Source: a virus (taxonomy: Duplodnaviria; Caudoviricetes). Taken from it: 64,000 bases of DNA. The DNA lies in IMG/VR virus record IMGVR_UViG_3300009031_000221, positions 320,001 through 384,000 of that record. One strand, written 5' to 3'. Positions within the stretch are counted from its first letter, which is position 1, and each line of letters begins with the position of its first letter. The position numbers were made by a program, and so were the translations under genes. The notes below the pieces were generated by a model. That model made no database searches. It was not told the DNA's origin and worked only from the letters and a program-made list of their open reading frames with translations. Of the stretch, positions 7,394 to 59,003 are shown piece after piece.

Positions 7394-7861
7394 CTAGGCG
7401 CAAGGGCCATTGTGGCGGGTAAATGGGTTGGAACACTCGGTGATGGGTTCCGCCATGACGGTACGGATCTCTACCTTGAGCCCTACCTTTTCAAGGAATG
7501 ATACGTCCACAGTATCTTCCTGAGGGATGAGGTCAGTAACGTGCCACGGAAGGTTCTTCAGGCCCTCCCTGATCTTCTCCTGGGTTAGCCCCATGTAATC
7601 GTAGGTGTTGTATTGGCGTTCGTCATAGGAATGATTTCGCACGGACACAACACAGTAGGAGTAGCGAATCTGCTCCTCCAATGTCGTAACGGCACGGTTG
7701 AGCATCAGTAGCCGCGTATCGCATCCCGTAACCCACAGTTCCAAGTGATCAGGCTCGATGATAGGCTTGAAGTTAGTCTGCAAGGACTCTACAACGAGTG
7801 CCTCAATCTCTTGCTGGTTCTGTGTTGCCAGGTAAGCAACAACGTCTTCGCGAGTAATCAT
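7394..7861 (-). CDS. hypothetical protein
   Basis: 155 aa, RBS-like GGAGAAC before ATG. Confidence 0.6.
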   Translation of the reverse strand: MITREDVVAYLATQNQQEIEALVVESLQTNFKPIIEPDHLELWVTGCDTRLLMLNRAVTTLEEQIRYSYCVVSVRNHSYDERQYNTYDYMGLTQEKIREGLKNLPWHVTDLIPQEDTVDVSFLEKVGLKVEIRTVMAEPITECSNPFTRHNGPCA

Positions 7862-7892
7862 GTTCGTTCTCCTGTGGCATTAGTATACCCGG

Positions 7893-8813
7893 CTAGTCCG
7901 GTTCATCATTACCCGAAAGGAAGTATCCTTCAGCCGATGGATCGATCTCGGGCATCTTCGCTTTGGGCGGTTCAGGTTGAGGGCCGTTGGTGTTCTCAAG
8001 GGTCTCTATCAGATCCTCGATATTGCCATTTATGACCGGGGGCGTGTACATGATTCGCACCTTGGAATCATACCGACTGGCGAGTACGGACACGAGGCCC
8101 ACGAAGTCCGAAATACTGGTGGGGTCGATGTTCGTGAACTCCTCATCCGATATGTCCGCATCGAACACTCCACTATCCTTCCATGTGAAGGTAGCGAAGC
8201 GCTTGCGGTTGTAATCAATCGTCATTCGGATGTATTCATCGGAAGTGCCGACGGTCAATGTACAATCCGGCTGAGGGTAGGTATTCTTCGGCAAGTACTT
8301 CATCAATTCCGTCGTGGTCTTGATAATGGAGTGTGCCATCGAGGGAGGGCACCCGTTATTGGACAGGAATGTGAAGGTTAGGTTAACGCCACTATCGGGG
8401 ACATAGGGGCGGAGGGTTTTGATATTGTTGATGGCGGCTTGGATAGGGTTCGGGTCAGGCTTGGGCTTGAACCGTACTTCAGGGATACGCTCTGTCCCTA
8501 GGAGACTAGCATTGAAGTGTGCGTTGCATACGGTGCAACGGATGTTCTGGCTACTGCCACCTTCCGGGCCATACTGCAGGGTGTCCCGTAGGCAATCAGG
8601 GCACTTATGGTAGACCAAGAGCCATAGCGTCATGTTGTCAGAATCTGACACGGGACGCTTACGGGAAAGGATGAACAGCTTCACCTTGGCAACCAACCAA
8701 GGCCAAAGGATCTGCCGAGCTAATTGGAATGTTGCCAATATTCCTACCGATAGGGCGAGTAATATGGCAGCCATGAAGGCCACCCAAAAGATATTCTTCC
8801 ACAGTTCTATCAT
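7893..8813 (-). CDS. NDxAGW-family member 1: N-terminal TM, CxxC...CxxC zinc finger
   Basis: start refined to MIELWK; TM helix; CPDC...CTVC; motif IDPTSISDFVGLVSVL. Confidence 0.6.
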   Translation of the reverse strand: MIELWKNIFWVAFMAAILLALSVGILATFQLARQILWPWLVAKVKLFILSRKRPVSDSDNMTLWLLVYHKCPDCLRDTLQYGPEGGSSQNIRCTVCNAHFNASLLGTERIPEVRFKPKPDPNPIQAAINNIKTLRPYVPDSGVNLTFTFLSNNGCPPSMAHSIIKTTTELMKYLPKNTYPQPDCTLTVGTSDEYIRMTIDYNRKRFATFTWKDSGVFDADISDEEFTNIDPTSISDFVGLVSVLASRYDSKVRIMYTPPVINGNIEDLIETLENTNGPQPEPPKAKMPEIDPSAEGYFLSGNDEPD

Positions 8814-10051
8814 GGTGCATTCCCCAAGTATGGCATTTGTCCTGTATATTTGCAGGTCTCGCACCCAATCAAGGAATCAGGGTCTTGTTTGGGATCCCTT
8901 CCTGTCCCACCGCAAACACGACAGTCAACCATAGGCGGGTACACCCGTCCATTGCCATCACAGGTCTCGCACTCCACGATACGACCCTTGGCAGTAATGA
9001 GCTTGACTCCTGTCCCTTGGCACTTGGTGCATTCGATTTGGGCAGATCCCTTGGCATTGTTTCTTGCCGCCATTGCCTTAGTCGTGTAGGTGTAATTCGG
9101 CCTATTAACAGGGGCAGGAATCGGCGCTTGGCTAGGGTTTTGGAGCGCCGCGATTTCCTCAAACGTCCTGACATAGGAAGGAGGATCGAAGTCCCTCGTC
9201 GGGTATTCATCTACCTCCCCATCATCTTCCTTCTCCGTAACCCCTGTGAGGGCGTAGAGGTAATCCTTAGGCCCCGTGTGCCCATCCAGGATGAAGGGAT
9301 CCAGGATAGCCCTAAGAAGTTGATGTGCTTGCTTATCCTCCGCGGACGGGGCAATACGGGTGATGTCCCCACAACTAAGGGCACGAGGAATGGAAGATGT
9401 CTTGTCATTTGGGTCAATGTGGATTCCATTGGCAGGCACTATCGTATATCCATCCCCCGTAAGGTGCAACATGTCCGATGTCACATCAATGTGATTGCCC
9501 GGGGAGAAGTGATAGGCCTTTCGTGTAGGTTGGTCAAAGAATGCGATCCGCTTATTGACAAAGCAACGGAAAGGCTTCTTGGCGATATTATCCGCGATTT
9601 GCCATACGGTTACGGCGATGGACAGCCACCCAAAGAAGTCCGTTGGATTCTCATTGTCGAGGGATTCCCGAATGATCTCGATGTTATTGGATGCGCCGTC
9701 TTGACGGTATGACAGGATGGCAAGGGTCGCATCCTTATGAAAGTCAAACCGAATCGTCAGCTTCGATGGCGTCGGCAACATGGCGGCAAGGGTGATGGGG
9801 AGGACAGCCCTATCAGGAAGCTCTGGTAGAGCGGGGCTTGGGATTCCCCACTTAGGGGAAGGCTTGGGGGCAATAGGGATCAGGACATTCCAATCGTTTT
9901 CCTTCAAGTCAATGCCATGGTGAGACACTGCCGTATCGATTGCCCCAATGACTTGCTGAGCCAAGATCGCAATGGCACCAATGGCAGTACCGTTCCTAGC
10001 AGGCGGGATAAGGAGTTCTAGTTTGTGGATGTGCGCCATAGGCAAGCTCAT
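8810..10051 (-). CDS. NDxAGW-family member 2 fused to DnaJ-type zinc finger
   Basis: LDNENPTDFFGWLSIAV; C-term CTKCQGTG, CETCDGNG, CRVCGGTG, CETCKYTG (CxxCxGxG x4). Confidence 0.7.
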   Translation of the reverse strand: MSLPMAHIHKLELLIPPARNGTAIGAIAILAQQVIGAIDTAVSHHGIDLKENDWNVLIPIAPKPSPKWGIPSPALPELPDRAVLPITLAAMLPTPSKLTIRFDFHKDATLAILSYRQDGASNNIEIIRESLDNENPTDFFGWLSIAVTVWQIADNIAKKPFRCFVNKRIAFFDQPTRKAYHFSPGNHIDVTSDMLHLTGDGYTIVPANGIHIDPNDKTSSIPRALSCGDITRIAPSAEDKQAHQLLRAILDPFILDGHTGPKDYLYALTGVTEKEDDGEVDEYPTRDFDPPSYVRTFEEIAALQNPSQAPIPAPVNRPNYTYTTKAMAARNNAKGSAQIECTKCQGTGVKLITAKGRIVECETCDGNGRVYPPMVDCRVCGGTGRDPKQDPDSLIGCETCKYTGQMPYLGNAP

Positions 10052-10695
10052 AAGTTCAACCCCGCCATTGCCTTGTCAATGCAGTCTAGCGTGTTCAACC
10101 CCGCTAACGTGTCGTCAATGCGGTCTATCACGCTTCTTTTATCCTTTAGCGCACTTCTCTGATCTTGTTCAGTGAGTTGATCCGATAGCAACTCGATGCC
10201 CTTCCATGTGCTTTCGGACAGATTCATCATGCTATTCGCCAGTTCCTCGATCCGTCCATTATCTGCATAGGCACCAAGGATTTGCTTGGCTATGTCGATA
10301 CAACGGGCTTTCTTATCCCTGATGGCCTTCCTTGCAGGCATTTCATTCAGTGCCGCAATAACGATAGAAGCCCATCCAGCAACATCGTTCTCGTCATAGG
10401 GGCAAAGGTCATCGTAATGGGTTTCCGTTTGCATATCCTTGATGCATCCGTTGAACAACAGCGGGGTATGTGAGTTCATGGTCATGGTGGCGGGACCACA
10501 AACGATTTCGAATACTATGCATCCCTGAGGAACTTGCGGCCCCGCATAGAAAGTACCCCAATCGTATCCATCAGGGAGGAATGTATCCAGGGAACCTGCC
10601 AGCTTTCGGGCAGACTCCTCAAGCACTTCGGATCTTTGGAATCTCGATTCATGGTGCAACTTGATGGCATGATCGACGGCGTCTAGCAGTTTCAT
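10048..10695 (-). CDS. NDxAGW-family member 3
   Basis: LCPYDENDVAGWASIVI. Confidence 0.65.
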   Translation of the reverse strand: MKLLDAVDHAIKLHHESRFQRSEVLEESARKLAGSLDTFLPDGYDWGTFYAGPQVPQGCIVFEIVCGPATMTMNSHTPLLFNGCIKDMQTETHYDDLCPYDENDVAGWASIVIAALNEMPARKAIRDKKARCIDIAKQILGAYADNGRIEELANSMMNLSESTWKGIELLSDQLTEQDQRSALKDKRSVIDRIDDTLAGLNTLDCIDKAMAGLNL

Positions 10696-11171
10696 TATCC
10701 ATCTCCAAACAAGTCCATCAGGCTGAAATCGTCTAAGGTGCTATCTACCCGATCGACTTGTTTCTCGAGTCCTTTGACGGAAATATCAAGCTTATTTAGG
10801 GCTTCCTCCAGTTCCACATAATCGCGTACGTGTGCTATGACGATGGATACCCAACCCGCAAGGTCATTCGGGTCTGAGGGATCTAGATCGGGATATTGCA
10901 CACCGCCAGCATGACCTGTGAATGTGACATTCCCCTTATCCCAATGCATCCGAATTTGATACTCCGATATCAAGTCACATCCCCAACCATTGTAATCATC
11001 ATAGTAGATGCCCATAGTCCATTGAATTTCGGGGGTTTTGGATGCAATGATAGCTTCTACAACGACATTGACGGAATTGGCTAGAACCCCTCGAGGGGTA
11101 TGGGGCTCCGCGAAGGCACCTAATGACTCTGCCCACTTAGGTATTTCCGATGTAGAAATGAGTTGCGTCAT
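10695..11171 (-). CDS. NDxAGW-family member 4
   Basis: LDPSDPNDLAGWVSIVI. Confidence 0.65.
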   Translation of the reverse strand: MTQLISTSEIPKWAESLGAFAEPHTPRGVLANSVNVVVEAIIASKTPEIQWTMGIYYDDYNGWGCDLISEYQIRMHWDKGNVTFTGHAGGVQYPDLDPSDPNDLAGWVSIVIAHVRDYVELEEALNKLDISVKGLEKQVDRVDSTLDDFSLMDLFGDG

Positions 11172-11186
11172 CTATCCTCCACAGGT

Positions 11187-11212
11187 ACTACGCACTTCGA
11201 TCCAAAAGTTAG
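11187..11212 (-). promoter_or_regulatory. repeated bipartite promoter-like motif (variant)
   Basis: plus strand actacgc-N11-aaagttag; 16 nt above start 11171. Confidence 0.6.
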
Positions 11213-11694
11213 TCTCCGTCGTCATCCTCCGGGACAAGAAGATAGCCACCTTTGGCAGCCAGCGGCTTGACATAGGTAGCGATTGTGGTCAGGACAACCG
11301 AAGTGAACCCTGCAATGTCATTCGGATCATTGGTATCGACGTGAAATGCTGTAGATTGTCGCGTTGGCGAAGAAGAGGACTCACACGTATGCAAACATAC
11401 GGTAATGTCCTTTGAGGACAGGGCGATGGGCACGACGATTTCAACAAGTAATTTGTAGGCTGGAATTGGGGTAATCCCATCAGGCATCCATATAAAGGGC
11501 TTGCCGAACCTCCCGAGAATCTTGACACGGGCATGAATCCCGGTGCCATGCGATAGGACTTCCCATTCGTCCCGGTAATTAATGTGCCTTAGAGGGGTTA
11601 GGAGGGCGGATGCGGACGTTGCTGCCTTGGACATAGCCCCGCCTGAGGCGGAGGCTACGGAGGAACACAGGCGAACGTATTCGGGGGCATTCAT
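11209..11694 (-). CDS. NDxAGW-family member 5
   Basis: VDTNDPNDIAGFTSVVL. Confidence 0.65.
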   Translation of the reverse strand: MNAPEYVRLCSSVASASGGAMSKAATSASALLTPLRHINYRDEWEVLSHGTGIHARVKILGRFGKPFIWMPDGITPIPAYKLLVEIVVPIALSSKDITVCLHTCESSSSPTRQSTAFHVDTNDPNDIAGFTSVVLTTIATYVKPLAAKGGYLLVPEDDDGD

Positions 11695-12200
11695 GGCGCA
11701 TTCATCAGGCTTGGATCACGCATGATGTTGAGCGTGTTGATGACAACGGACATGAACCCTGTCATATCCATAGAGTCCTCGGGGTCTAGGTCATTGAGAA
11801 TGATGTTGGGCTTCCTCCAGGCGCTCAACTGGTAGGTATCCATGTTGAGCTTGTCTGGGTGCAGGGGCTTGGCGAGATCCGCCCATATGAGGCAATGGAA
11901 TATGGATCTCCCTGTTGGCCAAATGAGGATCATGTACATTTGCGGGGCAAGGCTGGGGGCATAACAGATGGTGATTTCTGCCGCCAGTGCCTTTACTTGC
12001 CAATCTGCAACATTGTTCATGCAAAGGGGATCCGGCAATCGATCCATGAGATCCGTGAGGACGCGAATGATGTTCTTTCGTGCCGGATGACTTTCTCTGA
12101 ACCCCTCTAGGATCGAATCCAAGGCCTTCCCATTGTGTTCGACACATTGGGTAATGTAATCCATCGTTTCTTTGTCAGGATCCGGCAATTTCCAAGGCAT
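11691..12200 (-). CDS. NDxAGW-family member 6
   Basis: LDPEDSMDMTGFMSVVI. Confidence 0.65.
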   Translation of the reverse strand: MPWKLPDPDKETMDYITQCVEHNGKALDSILEGFRESHPARKNIIRVLTDLMDRLPDPLCMNNVADWQVKALAAEITICYAPSLAPQMYMILIWPTGRSIFHCLIWADLAKPLHPDKLNMDTYQLSAWRKPNIILNDLDPEDSMDMTGFMSVVINTLNIMRDPSLMNAP

Positions 12201-12203
12201 GAT

Positions 12204-12776
12204 TCACCGTACCTTGAATGCGTCTCGCAAACGCCCTTCAATGTCTTTCCACGGTACATTGCCGTCCGCCTTCCAATCGAATAGAGCAACTCGGGCATAT
12301 CCCCATGCCAAGTTGCGATCTCCCTTGGCCAAGTAGACCTGTGCGTGTGTCATACCTCTCAGGGTACGAACCAGATGATCCGGGGTAGGGATGTCGTGTA
12401 GGACATCTGCCATGACATCGCAAAGGATCGGCATGAAGTCTGTACGGCTCAAGTAGGTGCGGCGGTTGGAACAACCCCAGGTCGTGTACATGGATTTGGG
12501 ATCCAGGTCTGTCATGTCCATTTGATTAGGCCCAACCTTGATGATATGTTCGTCATCAAGTTCAACCTCCCAACAGATTGGCCCGCCGACTCCAAACCGA
12601 ATGGCGGCAATGAGATTTTCCGCCCAATGCAACCCGGCGCCGCCAACCTTCAGGTCTCCCACGTAGACATGTGAACCTCCTACGCTAGCAGGCGGTTGCT
12701 TCTTCCCGTCTACGGTCTGCAATGGGCAGTAGGGCAAGGGGAGATTGTTGTCATTGCTGAACCAGTATGCCTTCAT
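12204..12776 (-). CDS. DUF7666-like phage protein (diverged)
   Basis: start refined to MKAYWFS; GLHWAENLIAAIRF...WEVELD; same MKAYWFS start as 13301..13984. Confidence 0.5.
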   Translation of the reverse strand: MKAYWFSNDNNLPLPYCPLQTVDGKKQPPASVGGSHVYVGDLKVGGAGLHWAENLIAAIRFGVGGPICWEVELDDEHIIKVGPNQMDMTDLDPKSMYTTWGCSNRRTYLSRTDFMPILCDVMADVLHDIPTPDHLVRTLRGMTHAQVYLAKGDRNLAWGYARVALFDWKADGNVPWKDIEGRLRDAFKVR

Positions 12777-12985
12777 GTTGCCCTCAAATCCCATGCGGGG
12801 CCATACTCCATGGCCAGTTCCAAATCCAAGATATCCTCGAAAGCCTGTGCCTTTTCCTCAAGCGCTTTCAATTCATCTTGTGTTACCCGAGAATTCCCGT
12901 TAGCAAACTCCCCTTCAGCCTGCTGAAATTGGAGGCGGGCTTTCCGGGCATTCAGTGCCGCACGACAGATCCCAAATTCACTCAT
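12773..12985 (-). CDS. hypothetical coiled-coil protein
   Basis: start refined to MSEFG (TAATG overlap). Confidence 0.55.
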   Translation of the reverse strand: MSEFGICRAALNARKARLQFQQAEGEFANGNSRVTQDELKALEEKAQAFEDILDLELAMEYGPAWDLRAT

Positions 12986-13320
12986 TAGAACTCCCGCTTC
13001 CACCACTTCTTGTTGGCGCATTGCTGCATAGCCTTGGTCAGGGCGTCGATGTGACCCAGGCCAGACAACCCGATGCATCCACGGTAGACACGCCGCAGGG
13101 ACTGCTGGACAAGGACAAGATCTTTGACCGCCTCCCGTCCTAGGAGGCGCTTGGAATTCGGGGCACGTACCCCGATTGCGGACAGGATGTTGTGCGCTTT
13201 CGACAGGTACATGGCAGCATGCTCCCGGTTCCGCAGATTGATCTGCTCCTGGGCACTGGCGAATGCTGCCTTGGCATCCTTGGCACAGATCTTGATGATC
13301 TCATCCGATACGTTCAGCAT
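12985..13320 (-). CDS. hypothetical protein
   Basis: 111 aa in coupled run. Confidence 0.55.
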   Translation of the reverse strand: MLNVSDEIIKICAKDAKAAFASAQEQINLRNREHAAMYLSKAHNILSAIGVRAPNSKRLLGREAVKDLVLVQQSLRRVYRGCIGLSGLGHIDALTKAMQQCANKKWWKREF

Positions 13321-13984
13321 TTTGCACCTCGAAAGCTTTGTCTACAAGCTCTTGGAATTTTACCCTTTGTGCGGCACGGGTATTTTGGAAGGCCAAATGT
13401 GCGTCATTGACGGAGAATGGGTGATCTCGGTACACCGCATCCGCCGCATATGTCGCAGCGCTTACGACTTGCCGCCCCACACTCAAATCGGTTGCGGTGA
13501 AAATGGCCTGGTATGCCGATTTAGCTGCCAGGGAAGGCACCCAATTACCGGCGTCCTCCAATGCCTGCCAAATAATACCTGTAAGGGCCTCCGCAGCATT
13601 GGCAAGCGAATCGTCACCCGTTTCCAGGTACCGTTTGACGATATCCGGGCATTCCCAAAGGTGAATCACCTGAAGGGCGCACCAACGGGCGAACTCCTTC
13701 AACAAGGGCGGAACTGGAATGCGATCCAAGTGCCTACGTTGGCTGGCGGCGTACTTGTTGACCGGCGTTCCATGTCCCACGATGGTCCCATCAAGCTCAA
13801 CGATATCCAGAGTCGACGGATAGAATGAGTATACCAAGGCATCGAAGGGATCAACGGAGGCATGAAGGCCATTCTCGCAAGGAATGATGATTCCGCCCTC
13901 GGTATAGGAATTACCTACCATGTAGATAATGTGCGATCTCCCCTGCATCGGACGACCATCCTTGCTGAACCAGTATGCCTTCAT
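13301..13984 (-). CDS. DUF7666-like phage protein
   Basis: MKAYWFS...VGNSYT...CENGLHASVDPFDALVY...VELDG...KYAAS, recalled phage family pattern. Confidence 0.6.
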   Translation of the reverse strand: MKAYWFSKDGRPMQGRSHIIYMVGNSYTEGGIIIPCENGLHASVDPFDALVYSFYPSTLDIVELDGTIVGHGTPVNKYAASQRRHLDRIPVPPLLKEFARWCALQVIHLWECPDIVKRYLETGDDSLANAAEALTGIIWQALEDAGNWVPSLAAKSAYQAIFTATDLSVGRQVVSAATYAADAVYRDHPFSVNDAHLAFQNTRAAQRVKFQELVDKAFEVQNAERIG

Positions 13985-14202
13985 GCTTGTGCCTCGATGT
14001 TCTTGACCGTTTGATGGAACTCCGCATCCGTAAACCACAAGGACTTCAATGCAAGAATGCCCCGGGCCTTGCAGCACGTCGGGCAATCGCAACACGTCCC
14101 GCCATGAACCTTCTTGGAGGGTACGCCCTTAGCGGCGATCCAGACCTCCCAGTCTTGGGGAGTCCAGTAGAGCGTGGATACAGTTGGAACGGGGAATACC
14201 AT
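13981..14202 (-). CDS. small Cys-rich hypothetical protein
   Basis: TCCDCPTCC; directly below motif copy at 14223. Confidence 0.55.
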   Translation of the reverse strand: MVFPVPTVSTLYWTPQDWEVWIAAKGVPSKKVHGGTCCDCPTCCKARGILALKSLWFTDAEFHQTVKNIEAQA

Positions 14203-19434: not shown

Positions 19435-19680
19435 CTATCGTAGCTCATGATCATATTCATAGATCACGCCCGGGTCAGAATACCGCAGGACGCTGAATTC
19501 ATCCCGCATTATCCAGGTGTTCAATGCATCTACCTGGAGTAGAGAATGATCTGTCCACACTTCACCCTCATTGGATGGCAAGTAGATCCCCCGAAGATCC
19601 TTTCGGTTAGGTTCTGACCTGGGTTCCATGGTGCCTGTGGAAGTATCGAAGGACTTGTTGGTGTCATACCATTGCGTCAT
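19435..19680 (-). CDS. WxDxxK array protein 1
   Basis: MTQWYDTNKSF (start refined). Confidence 0.7.
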   Translation of the reverse strand: MTQWYDTNKSFDTSTGTMEPRSEPNRKDLRGIYLPSNEGEVWTDHSLLQVDALNTWIMRDEFSVLRYSDPGVIYEYDHELR

Positions 19681-19684
19681 AGGG

Positions 19685-19903
19685 TCACCATTTAAGTTTG
19701 TCATCCCAAGGAAGCAAATGGCGGATTGAACTGTCCAGATTATGATAGGTATCCCGAATGCGATGAATCTTCTGATCCGATGCTAGTAACGAGAAATCCT
19801 CGAACACACGCCCTTCGCCCTGAGGAATAGGGTCGGGGTCATTGGATTCTATAGGGTAGCCCGCCTCCCCGAATTCCTTGGTGGTGTCATACCAGCATTG
19901 CAT
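19685..19903 (-). CDS. WxDxxK array protein 2
   Basis: MQCWYDTTKEF (start refined). Confidence 0.7.
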   Translation of the reverse strand: MQCWYDTTKEFGEAGYPIESNDPDPIPQGEGRVFEDFSLLASDQKIHRIRDTYHNLDSSIRHLLPWDDKLKW

Positions 19904-19904
19904 G

Positions 19905-20117
19905 CTAATCGCCCTCATACAGGACAATGACATCCTTATCCAAGACTACATAGGGATCTCGAATGGATCTAACGTGTATTTCGGAATTCGTTATGGAGTA
20001 ATCCGGGAATACACGTCCTTCTGCGGTATCGAATCTATTATCTTCTGCCCCGGCATTCACAGGGTCTAGAGGGCTCGTGGATCCGAATCTTTTGAGGGTG
20101 TCATACCAGCTATTCAT
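19905..20117 (-). CDS. WxDxxK array protein 3
   Basis: MNSWYDTLKRF. Confidence 0.7.
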   Translation of the reverse strand: MNSWYDTLKRFGSTSPLDPVNAGAEDNRFDTAEGRVFPDYSITNSEIHVRSIRDPYVVLDKDVIVLYEGD

Positions 20118-20377
20118 CGTTTGTGCCTATAGAGGTAGCCGGTGCCTACTTGTGGTGTTCCGGATTCCAGTTCTGTATGATCGTTCAGAATCCGCATAAT
20201 GATTCCGAGGGGCTCAGGATCCCAACACTCTACAGTCGTCACATCATCCAAATAGCTTGTTTCACCATCTAATAGGCATGCCCCGGTATCGATAGCGGAA
20301 CTGACACTCGACTTGAATTGCTTGTGCTTGTCCGACCAGTTGTGGCTAAATATCCATGTCTTTTCTAGGTCATTCAT
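20114..20377 (-). CDS. WxDxxK array protein 4
   Basis: NWSDKHKQF (start refined to MNDLEK). Confidence 0.7.
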   Translation of the reverse strand: MNDLEKTWIFSHNWSDKHKQFKSSVSSAIDTGACLLDGETSYLDDVTTVECWDPEPLGIIMRILNDHTELESGTPQVGTGYLYRHKR

Positions 20378-20660
20378 GGGGTTCCACGCTGAAATATCGG
20401 TCATTGCCAAAGCCATCATCATCCGGCACGGATGCAACCTCTAACTTTGTGTCATCGTATAGGTACTGCATGATTACTTCAATCGGGCGTGGATCATCGT
20501 AGTAATCGCTAATATCCTCATCCAAACGATCCATATCTCCCACCACCAACTTGGATACAGAATCTTCCCCCTTGATATTGATGTCCCCTTCAAAGTGCTT
20601 GGACTGATCCGACCAGTTACGGCTGAAGGTGATATTTCTAGCCCTGAGGGAAGTATTCAT
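20370..20660 (-). CDS. WxDxxK array protein 5
   Basis: NWSDQSKHF. Confidence 0.7.
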   Translation of the reverse strand: MNTSLRARNITFSRNWSDQSKHFEGDINIKGEDSVSKLVVGDMDRLDEDISDYYDDPRPIEVIMQYLYDDTKLEVASVPDDDGFGNDRYFSVEPHE

Positions 20661-20929
20661 CAGGTACGCTCATACCTGAGGCTGAATGAACCTAAAGGGA
20701 CCTCCGCCATCTCAAGGGTGGATAGGTCTATCAGGTGTTTCTTGTTGACAGGGATCATGCCATGATCATTTAGACGAGCCTTCATGTCATCCCGTACAAA
20801 GGGATTCTCCCAATTAGACAGCCTTGATGCCGTGTCATCCTCGTAATTCGTAAATGATTCGAACTCTTTGCCTGCATCCGACCATTGGTAGAACGTCGTT
20901 GGGTTTAGACGATACTCGAATTTATTCAT
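20660..20929 (-). CDS. WxDxxK array protein 6
   Basis: QWSDAGKEF (start refined to MNKFEY). Confidence 0.7.
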   Translation of the reverse strand: MNKFEYRLNPTTFYQWSDAGKEFESFTNYEDDTASRLSNWENPFVRDDMKARLNDHGMIPVNKKHLIDLSTLEMAEVPLGSFSLRYERT

Positions 20930-21189
20930 CGGGCACCCTTCCAAATATCACCGGGATCCGCAACCTCTAGGAACGTGTTGTCTGGCAAAGGTATCTTATA
21001 GATGGGGATCAGATCGGGATCGGTTATCCAAGTATTTCTATCGCGTACCGCAAGAATATCTTCCCCCCGGTTCAATCTCGACACGGAATCAAGTCCGAAG
21101 TCCACAGTGGAGTAAAAATGCTTATCACAGTCCGACCAGATGGATCTATGTGTCATGTCACGGGGTTGTTCTAGGCTAATACTACTCAT
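20926..21189 (-). CDS. WxDxxK array protein 7
   Basis: IWSDCDKHF (start refined to MSSISL). Confidence 0.7.
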   Translation of the reverse strand: MSSISLEQPRDMTHRSIWSDCDKHFYSTVDFGLDSVSRLNRGEDILAVRDRNTWITDPDLIPIYKIPLPDNTFLEVADPGDIWKGAR

Positions 21190-21403
21190 GTGGGTGTAGC
21201 AACAATCCTGTGTGGCTGTATTCCTTGATGCGTCCCTCAAGGGGGTTGAGGGCGTCCTCTTGATCCTCCACAGCACCTGAATATTCAGGCACGCCACGGG
21301 TCAAGATGAAACCCTCGGTATCGGCCATGGTCATGCCAATCACCGCACCGTAGCGCTTCAGGTCATCCCACCATACGTTTCTATCTGGTTGTTGTCCGTT
21401 CAT
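21182..21403 (-). CDS. WxDxxK array protein 8
   Basis: VWWDDLKRY. Confidence 0.7.
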   Translation of the reverse strand: MNGQQPDRNVWWDDLKRYGAVIGMTMADTEGFILTRGVPEYSGAVEDQEDALNPLEGRIKEYSHTGLLLHPHE

Positions 21404-21615
21404 ATTGCCTCATAGTCGGCCTTGTCTCGAAGCCTCCGGGGATCGTCATCGCTGTCAAGTTTCCTTGCGTCATGTTCATGGGATATATCCGTGGAGAAAT
21501 CTATTACTGACGATTCATAATCAGGTATGAACTTCTGGTAATGAACCACGCTGCAATTGTTATTGTAGTCATAGCCATAGCGTTTCGTTTGGTCGAACCA
21601 ACTCATTGTTGCCAT
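21400..21615 (-). CDS. WxDxxK array protein 9
   Basis: SWFDQTKRY. Confidence 0.7.
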   Translation of the reverse strand: MATMSWFDQTKRYGYDYNNNCSVVHYQKFIPDYESSVIDFSTDISHEHDARKLDSDDDPRRLRDKADYEAI

Positions 21616-21617
21616 GA

Positions 21618-21833
21618 CTAGTATATCACCTCATCCCGGAGTTTACGCCCGTCATCCATGTTGGATAGCCATCGGCCATCACTTTTCCACAAGGAGTTTG
21701 CGCTACCCTTCATGGAGTTATCATTGAGCGTTTGGTTGTCCCGAAAATAGAGATTGGAGGGAAATACTTTCCCTCCCCCGCGGGATTCCAGGTGGAAGCT
21801 CTTCGATTGATCCGACCATGCCCAGTCTACCAT
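21618..21833 (-). CDS. WxDxxK array protein 10
   Basis: AWSDQSKSF. Confidence 0.7.
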   Translation of the reverse strand: MVDWAWSDQSKSFHLESRGGGKVFPSNLYFRDNQTLNDNSMKGSANSLWKSDGRWLSNMDDGRKLRDEVIY

Positions 21834-22036
21834 GATTCCCCCTTGTCCCGAATCCTTCTAGGGTCATGTTCACCCCCGATTGTCTTAGGTTCCGTTTCCC
21901 AATCGATTTCCCCATCCCCAAAGATCTCTATGAACCCCTTCTCCACGAGGTACCTAGGGTATCGCACCCGCCCTTCCCCATAGGAGTCCCCGCTATACCC
22001 CTTCAAGGAATCAAACCAGGACATACCTTGCATCAT
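21827..22036 (-). CDS. WxDxxK array protein 11
   Basis: SWFDSLKGY. Confidence 0.7.
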   Translation of the reverse strand: MMQGMSWFDSLKGYSGDSYGEGRVRYPRYLVEKGFIEIFGDGEIDWETEPKTIGGEHDPRRIRDKGESW

Positions 22037-22038
22037 AG

Positions 22039-22245
22039 CTATATCGCGTCCCGAAGCATTTTAGGGTCATCCCTAAACTCGAGGATGATTCTGGGTTCTG
22101 CCCTCTCATCGATTTCACAATCTTCATATTCAGATAGGGCATGTCGTCGCTCATCTACTAGGTATCTAGGAGGATGCACCCTTCCTTCCATCCATCCCCC
22201 GGTGAATTTCTTGGCCTGATCTGACCATGCCCATGCTCCAATCAT
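22039..22245 (-). CDS. WxDxxK array protein 12
   Basis: AWSDQAKKF. Confidence 0.7.
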   Translation of the reverse strand: MIGAWAWSDQAKKFTGGWMEGRVHPPRYLVDERRHALSEYEDCEIDERAEPRIILEFRDDPKMLRDAI

Positions 22246-22472
22246 CGGTTTTCCTTCTCATAATTGTCATTGATTCTTCGCCCTTCGTCGAAGATCTCGA
22301 GGGCATCACGTTCCCAGTCAAATTCGGGTTCCGTATCTACATCGTACAAGGATTGATCCCCTAATAGGTAGCGCATAGGGTATACCTTCCCTTCCAACAC
22401 ATCGAAACCAAGCTGTCCTTCTGACGGACAGTAGAAGCGTTTCGTTTGGTCATGCCATGACCTTTCTAGCAT
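22242..22472 (-). CDS. WxDxxK array protein 13
   Basis: SWHDQTKRF (start refined). Confidence 0.7.
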   Translation of the reverse strand: MLERSWHDQTKRFYCPSEGQLGFDVLEGKVYPMRYLLGDQSLYDVDTEPEFDWERDALEIFDEGRRINDNYEKENR

Positions 22473-22732
22473 GATTCGCACACTTCCAAGGAATCATAGA
22501 CAGACTCCTTGTAGGTTGTGTCGTTTATTGTCTTCCCGTGTATCTCTCTATAGCAGGGCAGGATCCAGGTTGTCTTGTCAATGACTAGATTCGGATCCCA
22601 AGTGATAGTGCTAGGGGATTCCAGCATCCCAAATACATGCTCCCATGCCTTTCTAGTATCATTCCATGCCGGGGTCATGACGAAGTACAGGCCTCCGTGG
22701 TTCCCCGTGGAATCGAAATTCAGGTTGATCAT
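22466..22732 (-). CDS. WxDxxK array protein 14
   Basis: AWNDTRKAW (start refined to MINLNF). Confidence 0.7.
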   Translation of the reverse strand: MINLNFDSTGNHGGLYFVMTPAWNDTRKAWEHVFGMLESPSTITWDPNLVIDKTTWILPCYREIHGKTINDTTYKESVYDSLEVCESC

Positions 22733-22983
22733 TGGAAATCCCCCGTACATAGTATATCTTGGAAAAGATCATCAGGCTCCCACGTATCATCTACGTCTCC
22801 ACTTTGAACATGCACATAACGGGGAAAAACACCGCCTGATTTGATGTCGGGATTCTTAGGATACCAGAATATACCGCTAGGGTGCTCGTGCTCCTCATCG
22901 GATCGCTGCCAGCACTTTCCATGTTCACTCCAATACCGATACTCAAATGCCCGAATAGGTTTGTCATGGTCAAGATCTGTCAT
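22729..22983 (-). CDS. WxDxxK array protein 15
   Basis: YWSEHGKCW (start refined to MTDLDH). Confidence 0.7.
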   Translation of the reverse strand: MTDLDHDKPIRAFEYRYWSEHGKCWQRSDEEHEHPSGIFWYPKNPDIKSGGVFPRYVHVQSGDVDDTWEPDDLFQDILCTGDFQ

Positions 22984-23240
22984 GATTCCCAGTCCCCATC
23001 GCATAGCTGCTCTTGACAATGATCCCCAGGTTCCCAATGGTCATCTATAAACCCGCCTTGAGGATGAACATAACGAGGAGATATTATGCCCGTAACACCA
23101 TCAGGGCTCATATGATATGAGTATAGACCACTAGGATTGTCATGTTCTTCCTCGGATAGTTCCCACCGCTTTTCACGTTCATTCCAATAGCGATACGGGA
23201 ACGCCTGAATCGGTTTGTCCTGGTCAAGTTCCGCATACAT
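22980..23240 (-). CDS. WxDxxK array protein 16
   Basis: YWNEREKRW (start refined to MYAELD). Confidence 0.7.
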   Translation of the reverse strand: MYAELDQDKPIQAFPYRYWNEREKRWELSEEEHDNPSGLYSYHMSPDGVTGIISPRYVHPQGGFIDDHWEPGDHCQEQLCDGDWES

Positions 23241-23259
23241 CAGACGCCATCTCCGGATA

Positions 23260-23484
23260 TCAGGGCGTGGTTCCCCCACCCTCTTCATCAACAAGCCTTC
23301 CATCAGGAATATGTGCAAATCGCGGATGGAACTTGTAGGTATGTGGCGCATCTACGTTGGATATGCCACAAAGGATTCCTGTAGGGGATTCCGCATCTAC
23401 AAAAAGCTCAACCCATTCATTGAACCCTTCATACCAATAGCGCTGAGCCCGTGTAGCAGGCGTATCATCAAGGTCATATTGCAT
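23260..23484 (-). CDS. WxDxxK array protein 17
   Basis: YWYEGFNEW (K replaced by N). Confidence 0.65.
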   Translation of the reverse strand: MQYDLDDTPATRAQRYWYEGFNEWVELFVDAESPTGILCGISNVDAPHTYKFHPRFAHIPDGRLVDEEGGGTTP

Positions 23485-23765
23485 TATGACCCCGACCGTT
23501 GTGCACTGACATAGTCCCCAACATACAGAATCTGATGTGTGGCATCATAGGGGCTATGCATCTCCTCAATGAGGTTTCCTGGGGCGTATCTGTAATCGGG
23601 CTGAATTGATCGAATGGCGTAATCGAGACGTTCGCCGTCATCATTAAAAATGCTGCTGGGGGTATCCATAGCCTCTGTCCTATAGAACCAAGTGTGGAAT
23701 TCATCGTTCCAATGCCAAAGCGGTGACGTGAAACTGAATCTCGTAGCGTCAAGATCAGATTGCAT
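23484..23765 (-). CDS. WxDxxK array protein 18
   Basis: HWNDEFHTW (K replaced by H; start refined to MQSDLD). Confidence 0.65.
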   Translation of the reverse strand: MQSDLDATRFSFTSPLWHWNDEFHTWFYRTEAMDTPSSIFNDDGERLDYAIRSIQPDYRYAPGNLIEEMHSPYDATHQILYVGDYVSAQRSGS

Positions 23766-24117
23766 TGCACACCGAAGCTGCTTTTTCCCGTGTCTTCTTC
23801 CGTTTTGCCCTCTCCGCCCTTCTCCGGTTGTCCCCCCGTTTCTTGTACTCTGCATGAAGTGCTTTCAGGGGCTCGAGCATGGAATTGATCCAGGCGATGC
23901 GTTCGGCAGGGAACTTGGTATCGAGCTTTGCTGGCGGAATGCTACCCTTGGCATTGTTGCAAGGGGCACATGCGGGCACGATGTTGCCAATATTGCTATA
24001 GCCACCCAAGGAACGTGGAACCCAGTGGTCGATGGTTATAGGTAGATCTGTACGTCCACAGTAGACACATACATGCCCAAAGTGCTGAAGGGTTGCCTGC
24101 CATGATTTAGCGCTCAT
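23755..24117 (-). CDS. HNH endonuclease
   Basis: CVYCG...TIDHWVPRSLGG...NIVPACAPCNNAKG. Confidence 0.9.
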   Translation of the reverse strand: MSAKSWQATLQHFGHVCVYCGRTDLPITIDHWVPRSLGGYSNIGNIVPACAPCNNAKGSIPPAKLDTKFPAERIAWINSMLEPLKALHAEYKKRGDNRRRAERAKRKKTREKAASVCNAI

Positions 24118-24422
24118 GTGTCATGTTTGGTCCGAACGACCCCTGGACGTTTATTGAAGTGCATATAGGACATACCTGATTCGCAGGATCCTGTAAAGTC
24201 CCCCTGCAGTATCATGTCATCCCCAGGATAGTTATATCCACCAAAGCCTCTGCCCGTATCTACTAAGGGGGCGTGATCCTCATAAATGTACATGGGATGT
24301 ATATCATTGTCATCTAGGAATGTTAGATGCCTATCAAGGACGATCCCGCTGACATCTTCATACCCCCAGGCAGAGCACCACCGCTTACCGATGTCATCCC
24401 AGTTGAATATGCCTTCTCTCAT
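24114..24422 (-). CDS. WxDxxK array protein 19
   Basis: NWDDIGKRW (start refined to MREGIF). Confidence 0.7.
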   Translation of the reverse strand: MREGIFNWDDIGKRWCSAWGYEDVSGIVLDRHLTFLDDNDIHPMYIYEDHAPLVDTGRGFGGYNYPGDDMILQGDFTGSCESGMSYMHFNKRPGVVRTKHDT

Positions 24423-24724
24423 CGGGCTTCCCACTCAGGGCTACGGAGTACCCCCGTGCCATTATGAATGACATAGTATTCGTAGCCGGGTCTATTTTCC
24501 TTCATGCCTGGAAAGTCGTCAATCATTAGAAGATCCTGTGATCCTTGTATGTACCCATTGAGATTAGGGGTTGAATCCTGAATGGGTTGTTTTGGCATGT
24601 CATCGTACATGGGAACGACAGCATTTTCAGCCCATACCCGATTTCCAGATATGATCCCACTGGAATCCTCGTAGCCCATTCCCGGGCGCCATTCCTTCTT
24701 GGATTCGTTCCAATTACGTGTCAT
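24419..24724 (-). CDS. WxDxxK array protein 20
   Basis: NWNESKKEW. Confidence 0.7.
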   Translation of the reverse strand: MTRNWNESKKEWRPGMGYEDSSGIISGNRVWAENAVVPMYDDMPKQPIQDSTPNLNGYIQGSQDLLMIDDFPGMKENRPGYEYYVIHNGTGVLRSPEWEAR

Positions 24725-25017
24725 AGCGTTCTCAACAGGATTGTCAATCCGCCATCCTCATCCCGAATTCGAATGTTACCCCGATTTATGTAACCGTTGT
24801 AATTGTAATCCCCAATCATGAGTCGCTCTTCAGGCATTTTGAAATCCCAAAGCATTGGTTCATCAAAGGGTTTATCCCTCAAGGAGGCTACCGGCAACTC
24901 CACATACAAGGGTTTACTTGTGTTGTCCCTATCCAGGTTAGGGACCTCCCAGAACCCGCTTTCAGGCTTCTGCGAGTAGATCCAAGTCTTGTACTGGTCA
25001 CTCCATTGTTGGCTCAT
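24721..25017 (-). CDS. WxDxxK array protein 21
   Basis: QWSDQYKTW. Confidence 0.7.
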   Translation of the reverse strand: MSQQWSDQYKTWIYSQKPESGFWEVPNLDRDNTSKPLYVELPVASLRDKPFDEPMLWDFKMPEERLMIGDYNYNGYINRGNIRIRDEDGGLTILLRTL

Positions 25018-25226
25018 TGGGGCTCATCATAGAGGCCTTCCTCATTTAGGATGCCTTCAGGAAGGAGGTTTTCTTTGGCGTAGATCGTAGATTCCGCATT
25101 CATCATGCGATGGTTTTTAGCGATGTTTTCTAGCACTGGAGGATTGGGCAATAGGGGCGGGAGCTTGCCTGGAATGGTTGATCCAAAGGCTTTCCATGAA
25201 TCTGCCCAGAAGGTAGTATCCGACAT
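25014..25226 (-). CDS. WxDxxK array protein 22
   Basis: FWADSWKAF. Confidence 0.7.
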   Translation of the reverse strand: MSDTTFWADSWKAFGSTIPGKLPPLLPNPPVLENIAKNHRMMNAESTIYAKENLLPEGILNEEGLYDEPQ

Positions 25227-25456
25227 TATTTGGCCTCCCCATAGAGACCGTCCCGCTTACGGATACTACATTGGATGTTCTCAGGGTCATATCCAAGTAT
25301 GAATCGGGCGTATTCATAGTCGTTAATCTCATGGATGCCTTCATCCAAGATCTGGTTATCCGCTACGATGACCGAAATCCCATCGAAACGCTGAGTGGCA
25401 CCCCAGCATTTCCAAGCATCCCACCATGCCCAATCAGATCTGGATGCTAGCGGCAT
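25226..25456 (-). CDS. WxDxxK array protein 23
   Basis: AWWDAWKCW. Confidence 0.7.
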   Translation of the reverse strand: MPLASRSDWAWWDAWKCWGATQRFDGISVIVADNQILDEGIHEINDYEYARFILGYDPENIQCSIRKRDGLYGEAK

Positions 25457-25680
25457 TCAACATCCTCCTCGTAGAGGTCATCCTCTTCCCGGAGATACCC
25501 CTCAGGCAGCCTTCCACCTTCCCACTGGTTTATGGTCTGGGCATCTACATTGGATATGTCAGCGCGGTCATCATCGCTATGCGTGGGTATATCGGAAAGA
25601 AGGCTTCCACCTTCGGATAGGGACCATGAATTGGCCCATCCTTTCCAATGGTCATACCAAACACGCCTATGGGATCTCAC
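25447..25680 (-). CDS. WxDxxK array protein 24
   Basis: VWYDHWKGW; GTG start overlaps the ATPase TGA (GTGA). Confidence 0.7.
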   Translation of the reverse strand: MRSHRRVWYDHWKGWANSWSLSEGGSLLSDIPTHSDDDRADISNVDAQTINQWEGGRLPEGYLREEDDLYEEDVECR

Positions 25681-58253: not shown

Positions 58254-59003
58254 TTACTTCCAATTTGGTGGGAACTGATGTACGTCTCGACGATGTAGAT
58301 ACCCCAATACCTCTTGAACCATACTGGTCAACAGGAATCTTTCCGGGTTAGCCTGCGGAGGCGCTGTCCGCCTGACATCAATATCCTGCCCTGCCATGAC
58401 GGGAAGGCTGAATCGCCACTTGAGGTCCCCGTCATATTCCCTCCGGCCTACCAGGAAGCCTTCCCCGGCGCATTGTAGGGGCAGGATCAAGTTATTGTTG
58501 CCGTGCCGCCACTCCGGGGCTACCCGAGGCTCAAGGATATCGACCACGGCATCCGCAATTTCATTGATGCCCATGCCACAAGGGAATAGAACCTTGGCAC
58601 CCTGGACTGCTAGCTCCATGGCGACCTTGAGCCCTCCCGGCATGATGTCCCGGTCATTGAAGATCGCCAGGAATACGTTGAGCCCTGTCTGGATCATCTC
58701 CATCTTGGTTGCTGCGACCCACCCTGCGATATCATTGGGGGACTCAATGAGGTACTCATCCAGGACTGCTGCCGTCGAAGCATCCTTCCAAGGGTTTTCC
58801 GTAACGGTAGACACCCACTTGACTGCAACAACCCCTTGAGCATTCTTGCTCACGATGATGCGGTTAGGAAAGAAGTCCAGGGCATTGACGGGGTACCCTG
58901 ACGCCGTAATGAATTTCCCCTCGGCGTTCAGGTGCCCCTTACTTGCATAGGGGAATGCTTGTACAAGGCTCTGAATGGTTTCGTCTTCTAGGTTGTAGAA
59001 CAT
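58254..59003 (-). CDS. hypothetical protein, possible distant NDxAGW-family member
   Basis: LIESPNDIAGWVAA. Confidence 0.6.
   Translation of the reverse strand: MFYNLEDETIQSLVQAFPYASKGHLNAEGKFITASGYPVNALDFFPNRIIVSKNAQGVVAVKWVSTVTENPWKDASTAAVLDEYLIESPNDIAGWVAATKMEMIQTGLNVFLAIFNDRDIMPGGLKVAMELAVQGAKVLFPCGMGINEIADAVVDILEPRVAPEWRHGNNNLILPLQCAGEGFLVGRREYDGDLKWRFSLPVMAGQDIDVRRTAPPQANPERFLLTSMVQEVLGYLHRRDVHQFPPNWK

What the first reader, a model, noticed from the sequence alone, without database searches (positions are those of the whole stretch)
7893..12200. Second tandem family: six diverged genes sharing a D-x-x-D-x-N-D-x-A-G-[WF]-x-S-x-V motif
Seen: IDPTSISDFVGLVSVL, LDNENPTDFFGWLSIAV, LCPYDENDVAGWASIVI, LDPSDPNDLAGWVSIVI, VDTNDPNDIAGFTSVVL and LDPEDSMDMTGFMSVVI in six consecutive genes. 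Each motif follows a beta-rich-looking segment. Members carry different add-ons: TM plus Zn finger, DnaJ-type Zn finger, or a coiled tail (members 3 and 4 share VxDRxDxTL). A possible seventh copy (IESPNDIAGWV) sits at 58254..59003 next to the other AAA ATPase. Family not recognised. Inference: a shared interaction domain with a conserved acidic loop and helix, deployed with different accessory domains.
Basis: partly seen in the sequence, partly recalled or inferred. Interest (0 to 1): 0.7.

Follow-up and report, generated by a model that had tools for sequence, protein, structure and literature searches.

The report
Orphan six-gene family in a megaphage
Six neighbouring genes of a 536-kb groundwater phage form a real, previously undescribed family that shares only a short acidic-turn-plus-hydrophobic-helix segment, while the rest of each protein has diverged beyond recognition; its function is unknown and the proposed seventh copy is not supported.

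Summary
Observation confirmed. All six quoted motifs lie in six consecutive, tightly packed minus-strand genes (7893-12200) of a 536,053-bp virus record.

Membership:
- m3-m6 are firmly related. Leave-one-out profiles recover each at rank 1 of 3,436 genome ORFs. The only outside homolog found (P0004) also picks them out.
- m2 and m1 are probable members. With a profile built without them they rank 1st and 3rd of 682 long ORFs, and they flank the array.
- The "seventh copy" (58254-59003) matches over about 10 residues only and is unsupported.

The demonstrable shared unit is about 25-40 residues, not a 100-aa domain.

The add-ons are real: a membrane anchor plus CxxC pair (m1), four DnaJ-type CxxCxGxG repeats (m2), and helical tails with a shared VDRxDxTL segment (m3, m4).

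No match in Pfam, PHROGs, NCBIfam, PADLOC or PDB sequences, and no relative in billions of proteins apart from one 1.26-kb contig. Structure models have low confidence.

Best reading: old tandem paralogs with a constrained C-terminal keystone or handle and fast-evolving heads, probably partner-specific adaptors. Function is inferred, not shown. This scan had already noted the same stretch in another reading (e1-5362133).

The parts
11691..12200 (-). m6, 169 aa, first gene of the array; bare member; motif at aa 138-154 (DNA 11739-11789)
   Evidence: leave-one-out E 2e-5, rank 1; called as a gene in independent assemblies
11209..11694 (-). m5, 161 aa; bare member with an acidic C-terminus; motif at aa 119-135 (DNA 11290-11340); its start overlaps the m6 stop
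   Evidence: E 1e-3, rank 1; m4-m5 E 0.007; DNA repeat D3 at the motif, shared with m4
10695..11171 (-). m4, 158 aa; motif at aa 96-112 (DNA 10836-10886); helical tail at aa 113-158 with VDRVDSTL; GGAGG ribosome-binding site upstream
   Evidence: E 3e-7; external homolog P0004, 5e-9; AF2: strands 34-96, helix 101-126, pLDDT 51
10048..10695 (-). m3, 215 aa; motif at aa 97-113 (DNA 10357-10407); all-helical tail at aa 120-215 (DNA 10051-10338) with IDRIDDTL and an internal 13-aa repeat
   Evidence: E 1e-4; m3-m4 E 5e-5, two segments; AF2: helix 102-118, tail pLDDT 70-80; D1
8810..10051 (-). m2, 413 aa (409 by the Logan gene call); motif at aa 131-147 (DNA 9611-9661); C-terminal DnaJ-type zinc finger with four CxxCxGxG-type repeats (DNA about 8840-9031)
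   Evidence: PF00684 E 2.4e-4, 21.7 bits, below the cut-off of 32.7; rank 1 non-member, E 0.074; rank 1 of 682; 3 of 3 listed strain differences synonymous
7893..8864 (-). m1, 323-aa ORF, probably 306 aa from the ATG at 8813; N-terminal membrane anchor (DNA about 8706-8813); CPDC and CTVC zinc-ribbon-like pair (about 8526-8603); motif-like segment (DNA 8082-8129); Pro/acidic tail
   Evidence: 306-aa gene call; ECs_2282 CxxC E 0.04, weak; rank 3 of 682, 33 aa aligned; 8 synonymous vs 4 non-synonymous codons between strains
58254..59003 (-). m7, the proposed seventh copy (249 aa) upstream of an AAA ATPase gene; NOT supported as a member
   Evidence: E 0.27 to 9; 10 aligned residues only; no informative Atlas neighbour

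Best explanation
The six genes are old tandem duplicates forming a lineage-restricted family of small acidic proteins in a 536-kb groundwater megaphage.

The only part under strong constraint is a segment of about 25-40 residues: a short strand, an acidic Asp/Pro-rich turn that caps a helix, then a hydrophobic helix. This helix carries an invariant Asp, Gly and Ser spaced three residues apart, which puts them on one face.

The roughly 100 residues in front of it evolve so fast that even the orthologous pair m4/P0004 keeps almost no similarity there.

Inferred mechanism: the conserved helix is the keystone of a small sheet-plus-helix fold, or a common handle for a shared partner or for self-assembly. 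The variable heads and the appended modules give each paralog its own target or location. These modules are a membrane anchor with a zinc ribbon in m1, a DnaJ-type zinc finger in m2, and helical tails in m3 and m4. The most likely role is in phage-host interaction.

Shown: the family, the motif, the add-ons, the restriction to this lineage, and purifying selection on m1 and m2. Inferred: the fold, the handle role, and the host-interaction function.
For: - Family membership is supported by leave-one-out HMMs, the external query P0004 and hhalign ranks 1 and 3 of 682 for the flanking genes m2 and m1.
- The genes share one strand and have overlapping or near-abutting stop and start codons.
- DNA similarity survives only at the motif (D3), so the duplications are old.
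- Lengths before the motif are similar: 95-137 aa in m2-m6 and P0004.
- m4 and P0004 are 47% identical around the motif. Upstream they are barely alike (z 3.7, just before the motif only) despite equal size and matching gene order.
- AF2 starts a helix at the motif in both m4 and m3.
- A sister strain in an unrelated sediment run keeps pieces of m1, m2, m4 and m6 at 83-98% identity. Listed changes are mostly synonymous in m1 (8 of 12 codons) and m2 (3 of 3), but all non-synonymous in m4 (5 of 5).
- All members are acidic, pI 4.3-5.9.
- No relatives elsewhere.
Against: - With the motif masked, no two members detect each other. Common descent of the whole proteins is therefore inferred from position and size, not shown.
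- On contig L004 the same motif ends a mini ABC-type ATPase whose upstream part is unrelated. This favours a portable module.
- Structure models are poor (pLDDT 51 and 54) and the best PDB match is at background level (Z 6.6).
- There is no expression or interaction evidence.
- The strain substitution counts are small, come from contigs at 2-3x depth, and only 40 of 75 differences were listed.
Confidence: 0.5

Rival explanations
1. The motif is a portable module of about 30 residues (a docking helix or mini-domain). Recombination has placed it on proteins that are otherwise unrelated. The six genes would then share a common partner, for example an ATPase, rather than a common fold.
For: - All detectable similarity is confined to the motif segment.
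- The L004 mini ABC-type ATPase ends with the same motif, beyond the end of the AAA_21 profile.
- The weak candidate m7 sits directly upstream of an AAA ATPase gene.
Against: - Six consecutive same-strand genes with similar lengths before the motif are what tandem duplication predicts.
- The m1-m4 and m4-P0004 alignments extend 15-30 residues upstream of the motif.
- The helix is largely hydrophobic, more like a buried core than an exposed linear motif.
- In m1, m2 and m3 the motif is internal, not terminal.
- The L004 ATPase gene is frameshifted on a single low-coverage contig.
- m7 is not a significant match.
Confidence: 0.22
2. The genes encode paralogous virion-internal or ejected proteins, or assembly chaperones, like the paralog families of inner-body and ejection proteins in phiKZ-like giant phages. 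The conserved segment would then be a capsid-targeting or assembly element.
For: - Giant phages carry paralogous families of head-internal proteins (own knowledge of phiKZ and SPN3US; PMC5694885 was listed but not read).
- m2 carries a chaperone-type zinc finger.
Against: - No similarity to any PHROG or structural family.
- m1 has a membrane anchor, which is unusual for packaged proteins.
- The neighbouring genes are accessory types (MazG-like, DUF7666, DUF2158), not morphogenetic.
- No protease-site or proteomic evidence was available.
Confidence: 0.12
3. The resemblance is chance or compositional, and some of the ORFs are not genes.
For: Pairwise E-values involving m1, m2 and m7 are not significant on their own.
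Against: - Leave-one-out and external-query tests are significant for m3-m6.
- Shuffles give 0.1-0.6 motif hits against 5-6 observed, all adjacent.
- Third-position bias of strain differences in m1 and m2.
- All six are called as genes in independent assemblies.
Confidence: 0.03

Closest known systems
Lineage-specific expansions of small proteins in jumbo phages, e.g. the ~35-copy zinc-ribbon expansion of Bacillus phage G (Iyer et al. 2021, PMC7824862, read)
   Same: A giant phage carries many diverged paralogs of a small protein confined to its own lineage, with function only guessed.
   Different: The conserved element here is an acidic turn plus hydrophobic helix, not a zinc ribbon. There are only six copies, and they carry heterogeneous add-ons.
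The 24-copy microprotein array of the same genome (window 19435-25719; earlier finding e1-5362134)
   Same: Same genome and same evolutionary style: a tandem array, a short conserved motif and the rest hyper-diverged. It was proposed to be a set of diversified partners of one machine.
   Different: The motif is different (W-x-[DE]-x-x-K-x-aromatic), the proteins are much smaller, and the array lies directly beside a Bcs1-like ATPase. The present array has no ATPase neighbour in this phage.
DnaJ central cysteine-rich domain (Pfam PF00684), for the m2 add-on only
   Same: Four CxxCxGxG-type repeats with spacing that matches the profile over positions 11-65 of 65.
   Different: The score of 21.7 bits is below the gathering score of 32.7. 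No J domain or DnaJ C-terminal domain is present. The fourth repeat reads CxxCxYxG.
Small sheet-plus-helix interaction folds (actin-capping protein, RWD/kinetochore domains, LptE, PepSY-like, TriTu immunity)
   Same: A generic arrangement of an antiparallel sheet backed by a C-terminal helix, in low-confidence models.
   Different: Z is 6.6 or lower and TM 0.5 or lower, which is background for these tools. There is no sequence relation, so no membership is claimed.

Membership tests
New family defined here (acidic turn + A-G-[WF]-x-S-[IV]-V helix module) | Profile match to the ~40-aa segment, using a profile built without the candidate | tested here: met
   m3-m6: E 1e-3 to 3e-7 at rank 1. m2: rank 1, E 0.07-0.25. 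m1: rank 3 of 682 by hhalign but HMM E of 3.8 or worse. m7: about 10 residues only, E 0.27 or worse, which counts as not met.
New family defined here | Homology across the whole ~100-aa region upstream of the motif | tested here: not met
   With the motif masked, members rank in the hundreds to thousands against each other (E above 90). Only m4-P0004 shows z 3.7, just before the motif.
DnaJ_CXXCXGXG (PF00684), m2 C-terminus | Four CxxCxGxG repeats forming two zinc centres | tested here: met
   CTKCQGTG, CETCDGNG, CRVCGGTG and CETCKYTG at aa 337-400 of the 409-aa form. The last repeat deviates at one Gly.
DnaJ_CXXCXGXG (PF00684), m2 C-terminus | Score at or above Pfam's gathering threshold | tested here: not met
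   21.7 bits against 32.7. TIGR02349 DnaJ scores 17 bits against 377.
ABC/AAA_21-type P-loop ATPase (considered because of the L004 neighbour) | Walker A, Walker B or H-loop, or significant similarity to the L004 ATPase outside the motif | tested here: not met
   Smith-Waterman z is 2.9 or lower in 14 comparisons. No Pfam P-loop hit for any member. The AF2 model of m4 shows a strand meander without the intervening helices (low confidence).
EF-hand / DxDxDG calcium-binding loop | Canonical D-x-[DNS]-x-[DNS]-G spacing with a Glu or Asp at position 12 | tested here: not met
   Direct reading of alignment A4. The conserved positions are D, D, G and S at spacing 3, with no Gly at loop position 6. 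No EF-hand family was hit in Pfam.
Any family in Pfam, PHROGs, NCBIfam, PADLOC or PDB sequences (core segment) | Significant profile hit covering the motif region | tested here: not met
   There is nothing over the core. Only the weak zinc-finger hits in m1 and m2 appear.

The most novel reading that the evidence does not exclude
The array may be a 'conserved handle, hypervariable head' adaptor system. Each paralog would use the same acidic-turn/helix module to plug into one phage or host machine, possibly a P-loop ATPase as hinted by the motif-bearing mini-ATPase on L004. Its fast-evolving head would capture a different host target. This would be a phage counterpart of diversified substrate-adaptor families, and the second such array in this one genome.
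Probability: 0.15. Interest if true: 0.7.

Novelty: new variant of a known kind. Interest (0 to 1): 0.4.

Why it matters
Megaphages are full of genes without relatives, and tandem diverged families are among the few handles for studying them. This array shows, in one place, a strongly constrained 25-40-residue element next to heads that diverge almost beyond recognition between orthologues, together with domain accretion (membrane anchor, zinc fingers, helical tails).

If the element is a common docking handle, the array would be a compact system for studying how a giant phage diversifies specificity. If it is only a fold keystone, it is an ordinary lineage-specific expansion.

Either way it defines a new family with a testable motif and corrects two over-readings: the 100-aa shared domain and the seventh copy.

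Tried and rejected
- Homolog searches:
  - m4, the family profile and m2(1-325) against 5.8e9 clusters gave only self hits.
  - phmmer of m4 against 1.84e9 representatives gave one real hit, P0004. P0002, P0003 and P0005 are long repetitive proteins and are spurious.
  - GenBank phages by blastn and tblastn gave nothing.
- Contig collections:
  - Protein scans of viral contigs with m4, P0004, the upstream neighbour and the AAA ATPase found nothing.
  - Degenerate motif patterns gave 3 and 6 hits in viral contigs and 45 in metagenome contigs. All were unrelated proteins matching only the pattern.
- Structure:
  - AF2 of the m4 core and of full m3 reached pLDDT 51 and 54.
  - The VIA-align search of PDB peaked at Z 6.6, which is background.
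  - ESM Atlas gave no feature hits and structural neighbours at TM 0.5 or lower.
- Complex prediction of m3 with m4 gave no verdict (score 0.00, controls not run) and is not evidence either way.
- No RNA holder was listed among the sequencing runs, so expression is untested.
- Independent assemblies of the phage are 100% identical over the region, so they give no polymorphism.
- The idea that members are degenerate mini P-loop ATPases is rejected. It arose from 'ILCGP' in the L004 ATPase against 'IVCGP' in m3, but z is 2.9 or lower.
- An EF-hand-like calcium loop is rejected by its spacing.
- Promoter and terminator scans were below shuffle expectation.
- A broad literature search for phage multigene families found nothing specific.
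Full report
**Where it lies**

The window is bases 320,001-384,000 of a single 536,053-bp virus record with 52% G+C. Exactly the same DNA is found in at least 11 Logan contigs from groundwater runs of one study, which may be the source. The neighbourhood is a long block of minus-strand genes, most without any family. Nearby are a MazG-like protein, two DUF7666 paralogs, a weak DUF2158 hit, two AAA ATPases and an M15 peptidase with a peptidoglycan-binding domain.

**The observation**

The six quoted strings are present in six consecutive minus-strand ORFs, transcribed in the order m6, m5, m4, m3, m2, m1:

| Gene | Window coordinates | Length |
|---|---|---|
| m6 | 11691-12200 | 169 aa |
| m5 | 11209-11694 | 161 aa |
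| m4 | 10695-11171 | 158 aa |
| m3 | 10048-10695 | 215 aa |
| m2 | 8810-10051 | 413 aa (409 by the Logan call) |
| m1 | 7893-8864 | 323-aa ORF, 306 aa from the ATG at 8813 by the Logan call |

Stops and starts overlap or nearly abut. The only gap inside the array is 37 bp, before m4, which has a GGAGG site. All six proteins are acidic, with pI 4.3-5.9.

**Is it more than chance?**

Loose regular expressions of the motif hit 5-6 times among all 3,436 ORFs of the genome, only in these genes, against 0.1-0.6 in shuffles. These patterns were derived from the data, so independent tests were run.
- **Leave-one-out HMMs:** m3, m4, m5 and m6 were each recovered at rank 1 with E 1e-4, 3e-7, 1e-3 and 2e-5. 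m2 came at rank 1 with E 0.25. m1 was not recovered.
- **External query:** phmmer of m4 against 1.84 billion representative proteins gave one genuine relative, P0004 (146 aa, E 6e-4). Used as a query against the genome's ORFs, P0004 hits m4 (5e-9), m3 (2e-3), m5 (0.04) and m6 (0.19).
- **hhalign:** a profile of m3-m6 plus P0004 was compared with all 682 ORFs of 140 aa or more. It ranks m2 first (28.5), m7 second (25.7, 10 residues aligned) and m1 third (24.4, 33 residues aligned). The best unrelated ORF scores 24.3.

For m2 and m1, adjacency to the array is a criterion independent of the score, so two of the top three being the flanking genes is strong support. m7 has no such independent support, because it was selected by the very feature that ranks it. 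Its HMM E-values are 0.27 to 9. I count m3-m6 as certain members, m2 and m1 as probable, and m7 as unsupported.

**What is actually shared**

I masked the motif and the 12 residues after it, then searched with upstream-only profiles and single sequences. No member finds any other: ranks are in the hundreds to thousands and E is above 90. Smith-Waterman z-scores between upstream parts exceed 3 only for m4-P0004, in the 14 residues just before the motif. DNA-level repeats survive only at the motif, between m4 and m5 (D3).

It runs Y-x-D-L-D-P-x-D-x-N-D-x-A-G-[WF]-x-S-[IV]-V plus about ten more helical positions (alignment A4). Asp, Gly and Ser at spacing three are invariant in all six window proteins.

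Both AF2 models, though poor (pLDDT 51 and 54), start a helix exactly at N-D-x-A-G: residues 101-126 in m4 and 102-118 in m3. The m4 model puts five strands before it. Spacing of three places Asp, Gly and Ser on one helix face, behind a Pro/Asp turn. This pattern is what one expects of a helix cap and a tight packing face.

**Add-ons**

- **m1:** a hydrophobic N-terminus followed by basic residues, then CPDC and CTVC 22 residues apart. After a Pro-rich linker comes the motif region, then a Pro/acidic tail. Its only library hit is a weak CxxC family (E 0.04).
- **m2:** four CxxCxGxG-type repeats at its C-terminus. They match Pfam DnaJ_CXXCXGXG over profile positions 11-65 at 21.7 bits, below the cut-off of 32.7, and there is no J domain.
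- **m3 and m4:** helical tails that align over 23 residues around [IV]DR[IV]D-x-TL. The m3 tail is the best-modelled part of that protein, at pLDDT 70-80.

**Relatives and evolution**

Nothing matches the core in Pfam, PHROGs, NCBIfam, PADLOC or PDB sequences. Searches of 5.8 billion clusters returned only this phage's own proteins. GenBank phages, IMG/VR and JGI metagenome contigs gave no true relative.

P0004 lies on a 1,263-bp contig, L004, at 57% G+C.
- **Downstream gene:** a partial gene follows P0004, and its best match in this genome is the N-terminus of m2 (E 0.095, rank 1). This suggests an m4-like then m2-like order without m3. That fits m3/m4 being the most recent duplication here, since they are the closest pair and share the tail.
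- **Upstream gene:** a frameshifted mini ABC-type ATPase precedes P0004, with AAA_23/AAA_21 hits. It ends, beyond the end of the AAA_21 profile, in I-D-M-A-G-F-V-S-V-M-V, which is the family motif. This is the main evidence for a portable module. However, it rests on a single low-coverage contig with a broken reading frame.

A sediment run from another study holds 151-230-bp contigs of a sister strain at 83-98% identity, covering parts of m1, m2, m4, m6 and both flanks. Among the listed differences:

| Gene | Synonymous codons | Non-synonymous codons |
|---|---|---|
| m1 | 8 | 4 |
| m2 | 3 | 0 |
| m4 | 0 | 5 |

They are small, from contigs at 2-3x depth, and only 40 of 75 differences were listed. 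They suggest that m1 and m2 are constrained genes, while the head of m4 changes fast.

**Explanation**

I favour old tandem duplication, with the motif segment as the only strongly constrained element and fast-evolving heads. The reasons are:
- The array is contiguous and on one strand.
- The lengths before the motif are similar (95-137 aa).
- The orthologous pair m4/P0004 shows that upstream regions lose recognisable similarity even between orthologues.

Whether the helix is a buried keystone or a handle for a shared partner cannot be decided with these models. The function (partner-specific adaptors in phage-host interaction) is inference from three things: the acidity of the proteins, the lineage restriction with rapid divergence, and the accessory-gene context.

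Three rivals remain: a portable docking module, virion-internal or assembly paralogs, and chance. The last is essentially excluded for m2-m6.

**Comparison with known systems**

The phenomenon is known: jumbo phages carry lineage-specific expansions of small proteins, for example the ~35 zinc ribbons of phage G (PMC7824862). The family itself, its motif and its combination of add-ons are undescribed. The same stretch had already been flagged once in this scan in another reading (e1-5362133).

**Verdict**

This is a real, new, lineage-restricted family. Interest is moderate.

Noticed in passing
L004:137-558 (Logan contig of SRR18682721): A frameshifted mini ABC-type ATPase of about 135 aa in total, directly upstream of the m4 homolog P0004. 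It has Walker A GPNGSGKST, Walker B LLFVLDEPE and H-loop GTHSP. It ends with the family motif (IDMAGFVSVMV), beyond the end of the AAA_21 profile. No orthologue of this ATPase was found in the 536-kb genome.
   Followed up: partly
window 12204-12794 and 13301-14095 (minus strand): The gene just upstream of the array and a DUF7666 protein 0.5 kb further on are paralogs. BLASTP gives E 4e-5, both share an MKAYWFS start, and the second hits PF24703 at E 1.4e-7. This is a separate small family flanking the array.
   Followed up: partly
window 10054-10127 (m3 C-terminal tail): An internal direct repeat of 35 nt at 80% identity, spaced 39 nt apart, encodes two 13-aa units (IDDTLAGLN / IDKAMAGLN). 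Their D-x-x-L/M-A-G-L core faintly echoes the main D-x-A-G-W motif.
   Followed up: no
window 7724-12337 versus run X5: A sister strain in a sediment metagenome differs very unevenly along the array: about 98% identity in the m2 head (9671-9900) but about 83% in the m6 head (11987-12135) and about 82% in mid-m4. This suggests different selective regimes in neighbouring paralogs.
   Followed up: partly
window 8837-9712 (plus strand): A 291-aa ORF runs antisense to m2. It is probably spurious. The zinc-finger repeats, the gene calls in independent assemblies and the third-position strain differences all favour the minus-strand gene.
   Followed up: partly
L008:5713-6204 and L013:6566-7057 (viral contig of about 226 kb): A 164-aa protein ends in D-K-I-D-L-A-G-W-W-S-V-V-K-I-I. 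Its upstream part looks helical and unrelated, and its HMM score comes from the pattern only. I treated it as a chance match, and its neighbours were not examined.
   Followed up: no
P0002: A 1,605-aa database protein consists of about 28 near-perfect 53-aa tandem repeats. It scored E 9e-33 against m4 purely by summing weak repeat matches. This is a warning for repeat-driven false positives.
   Followed up: no
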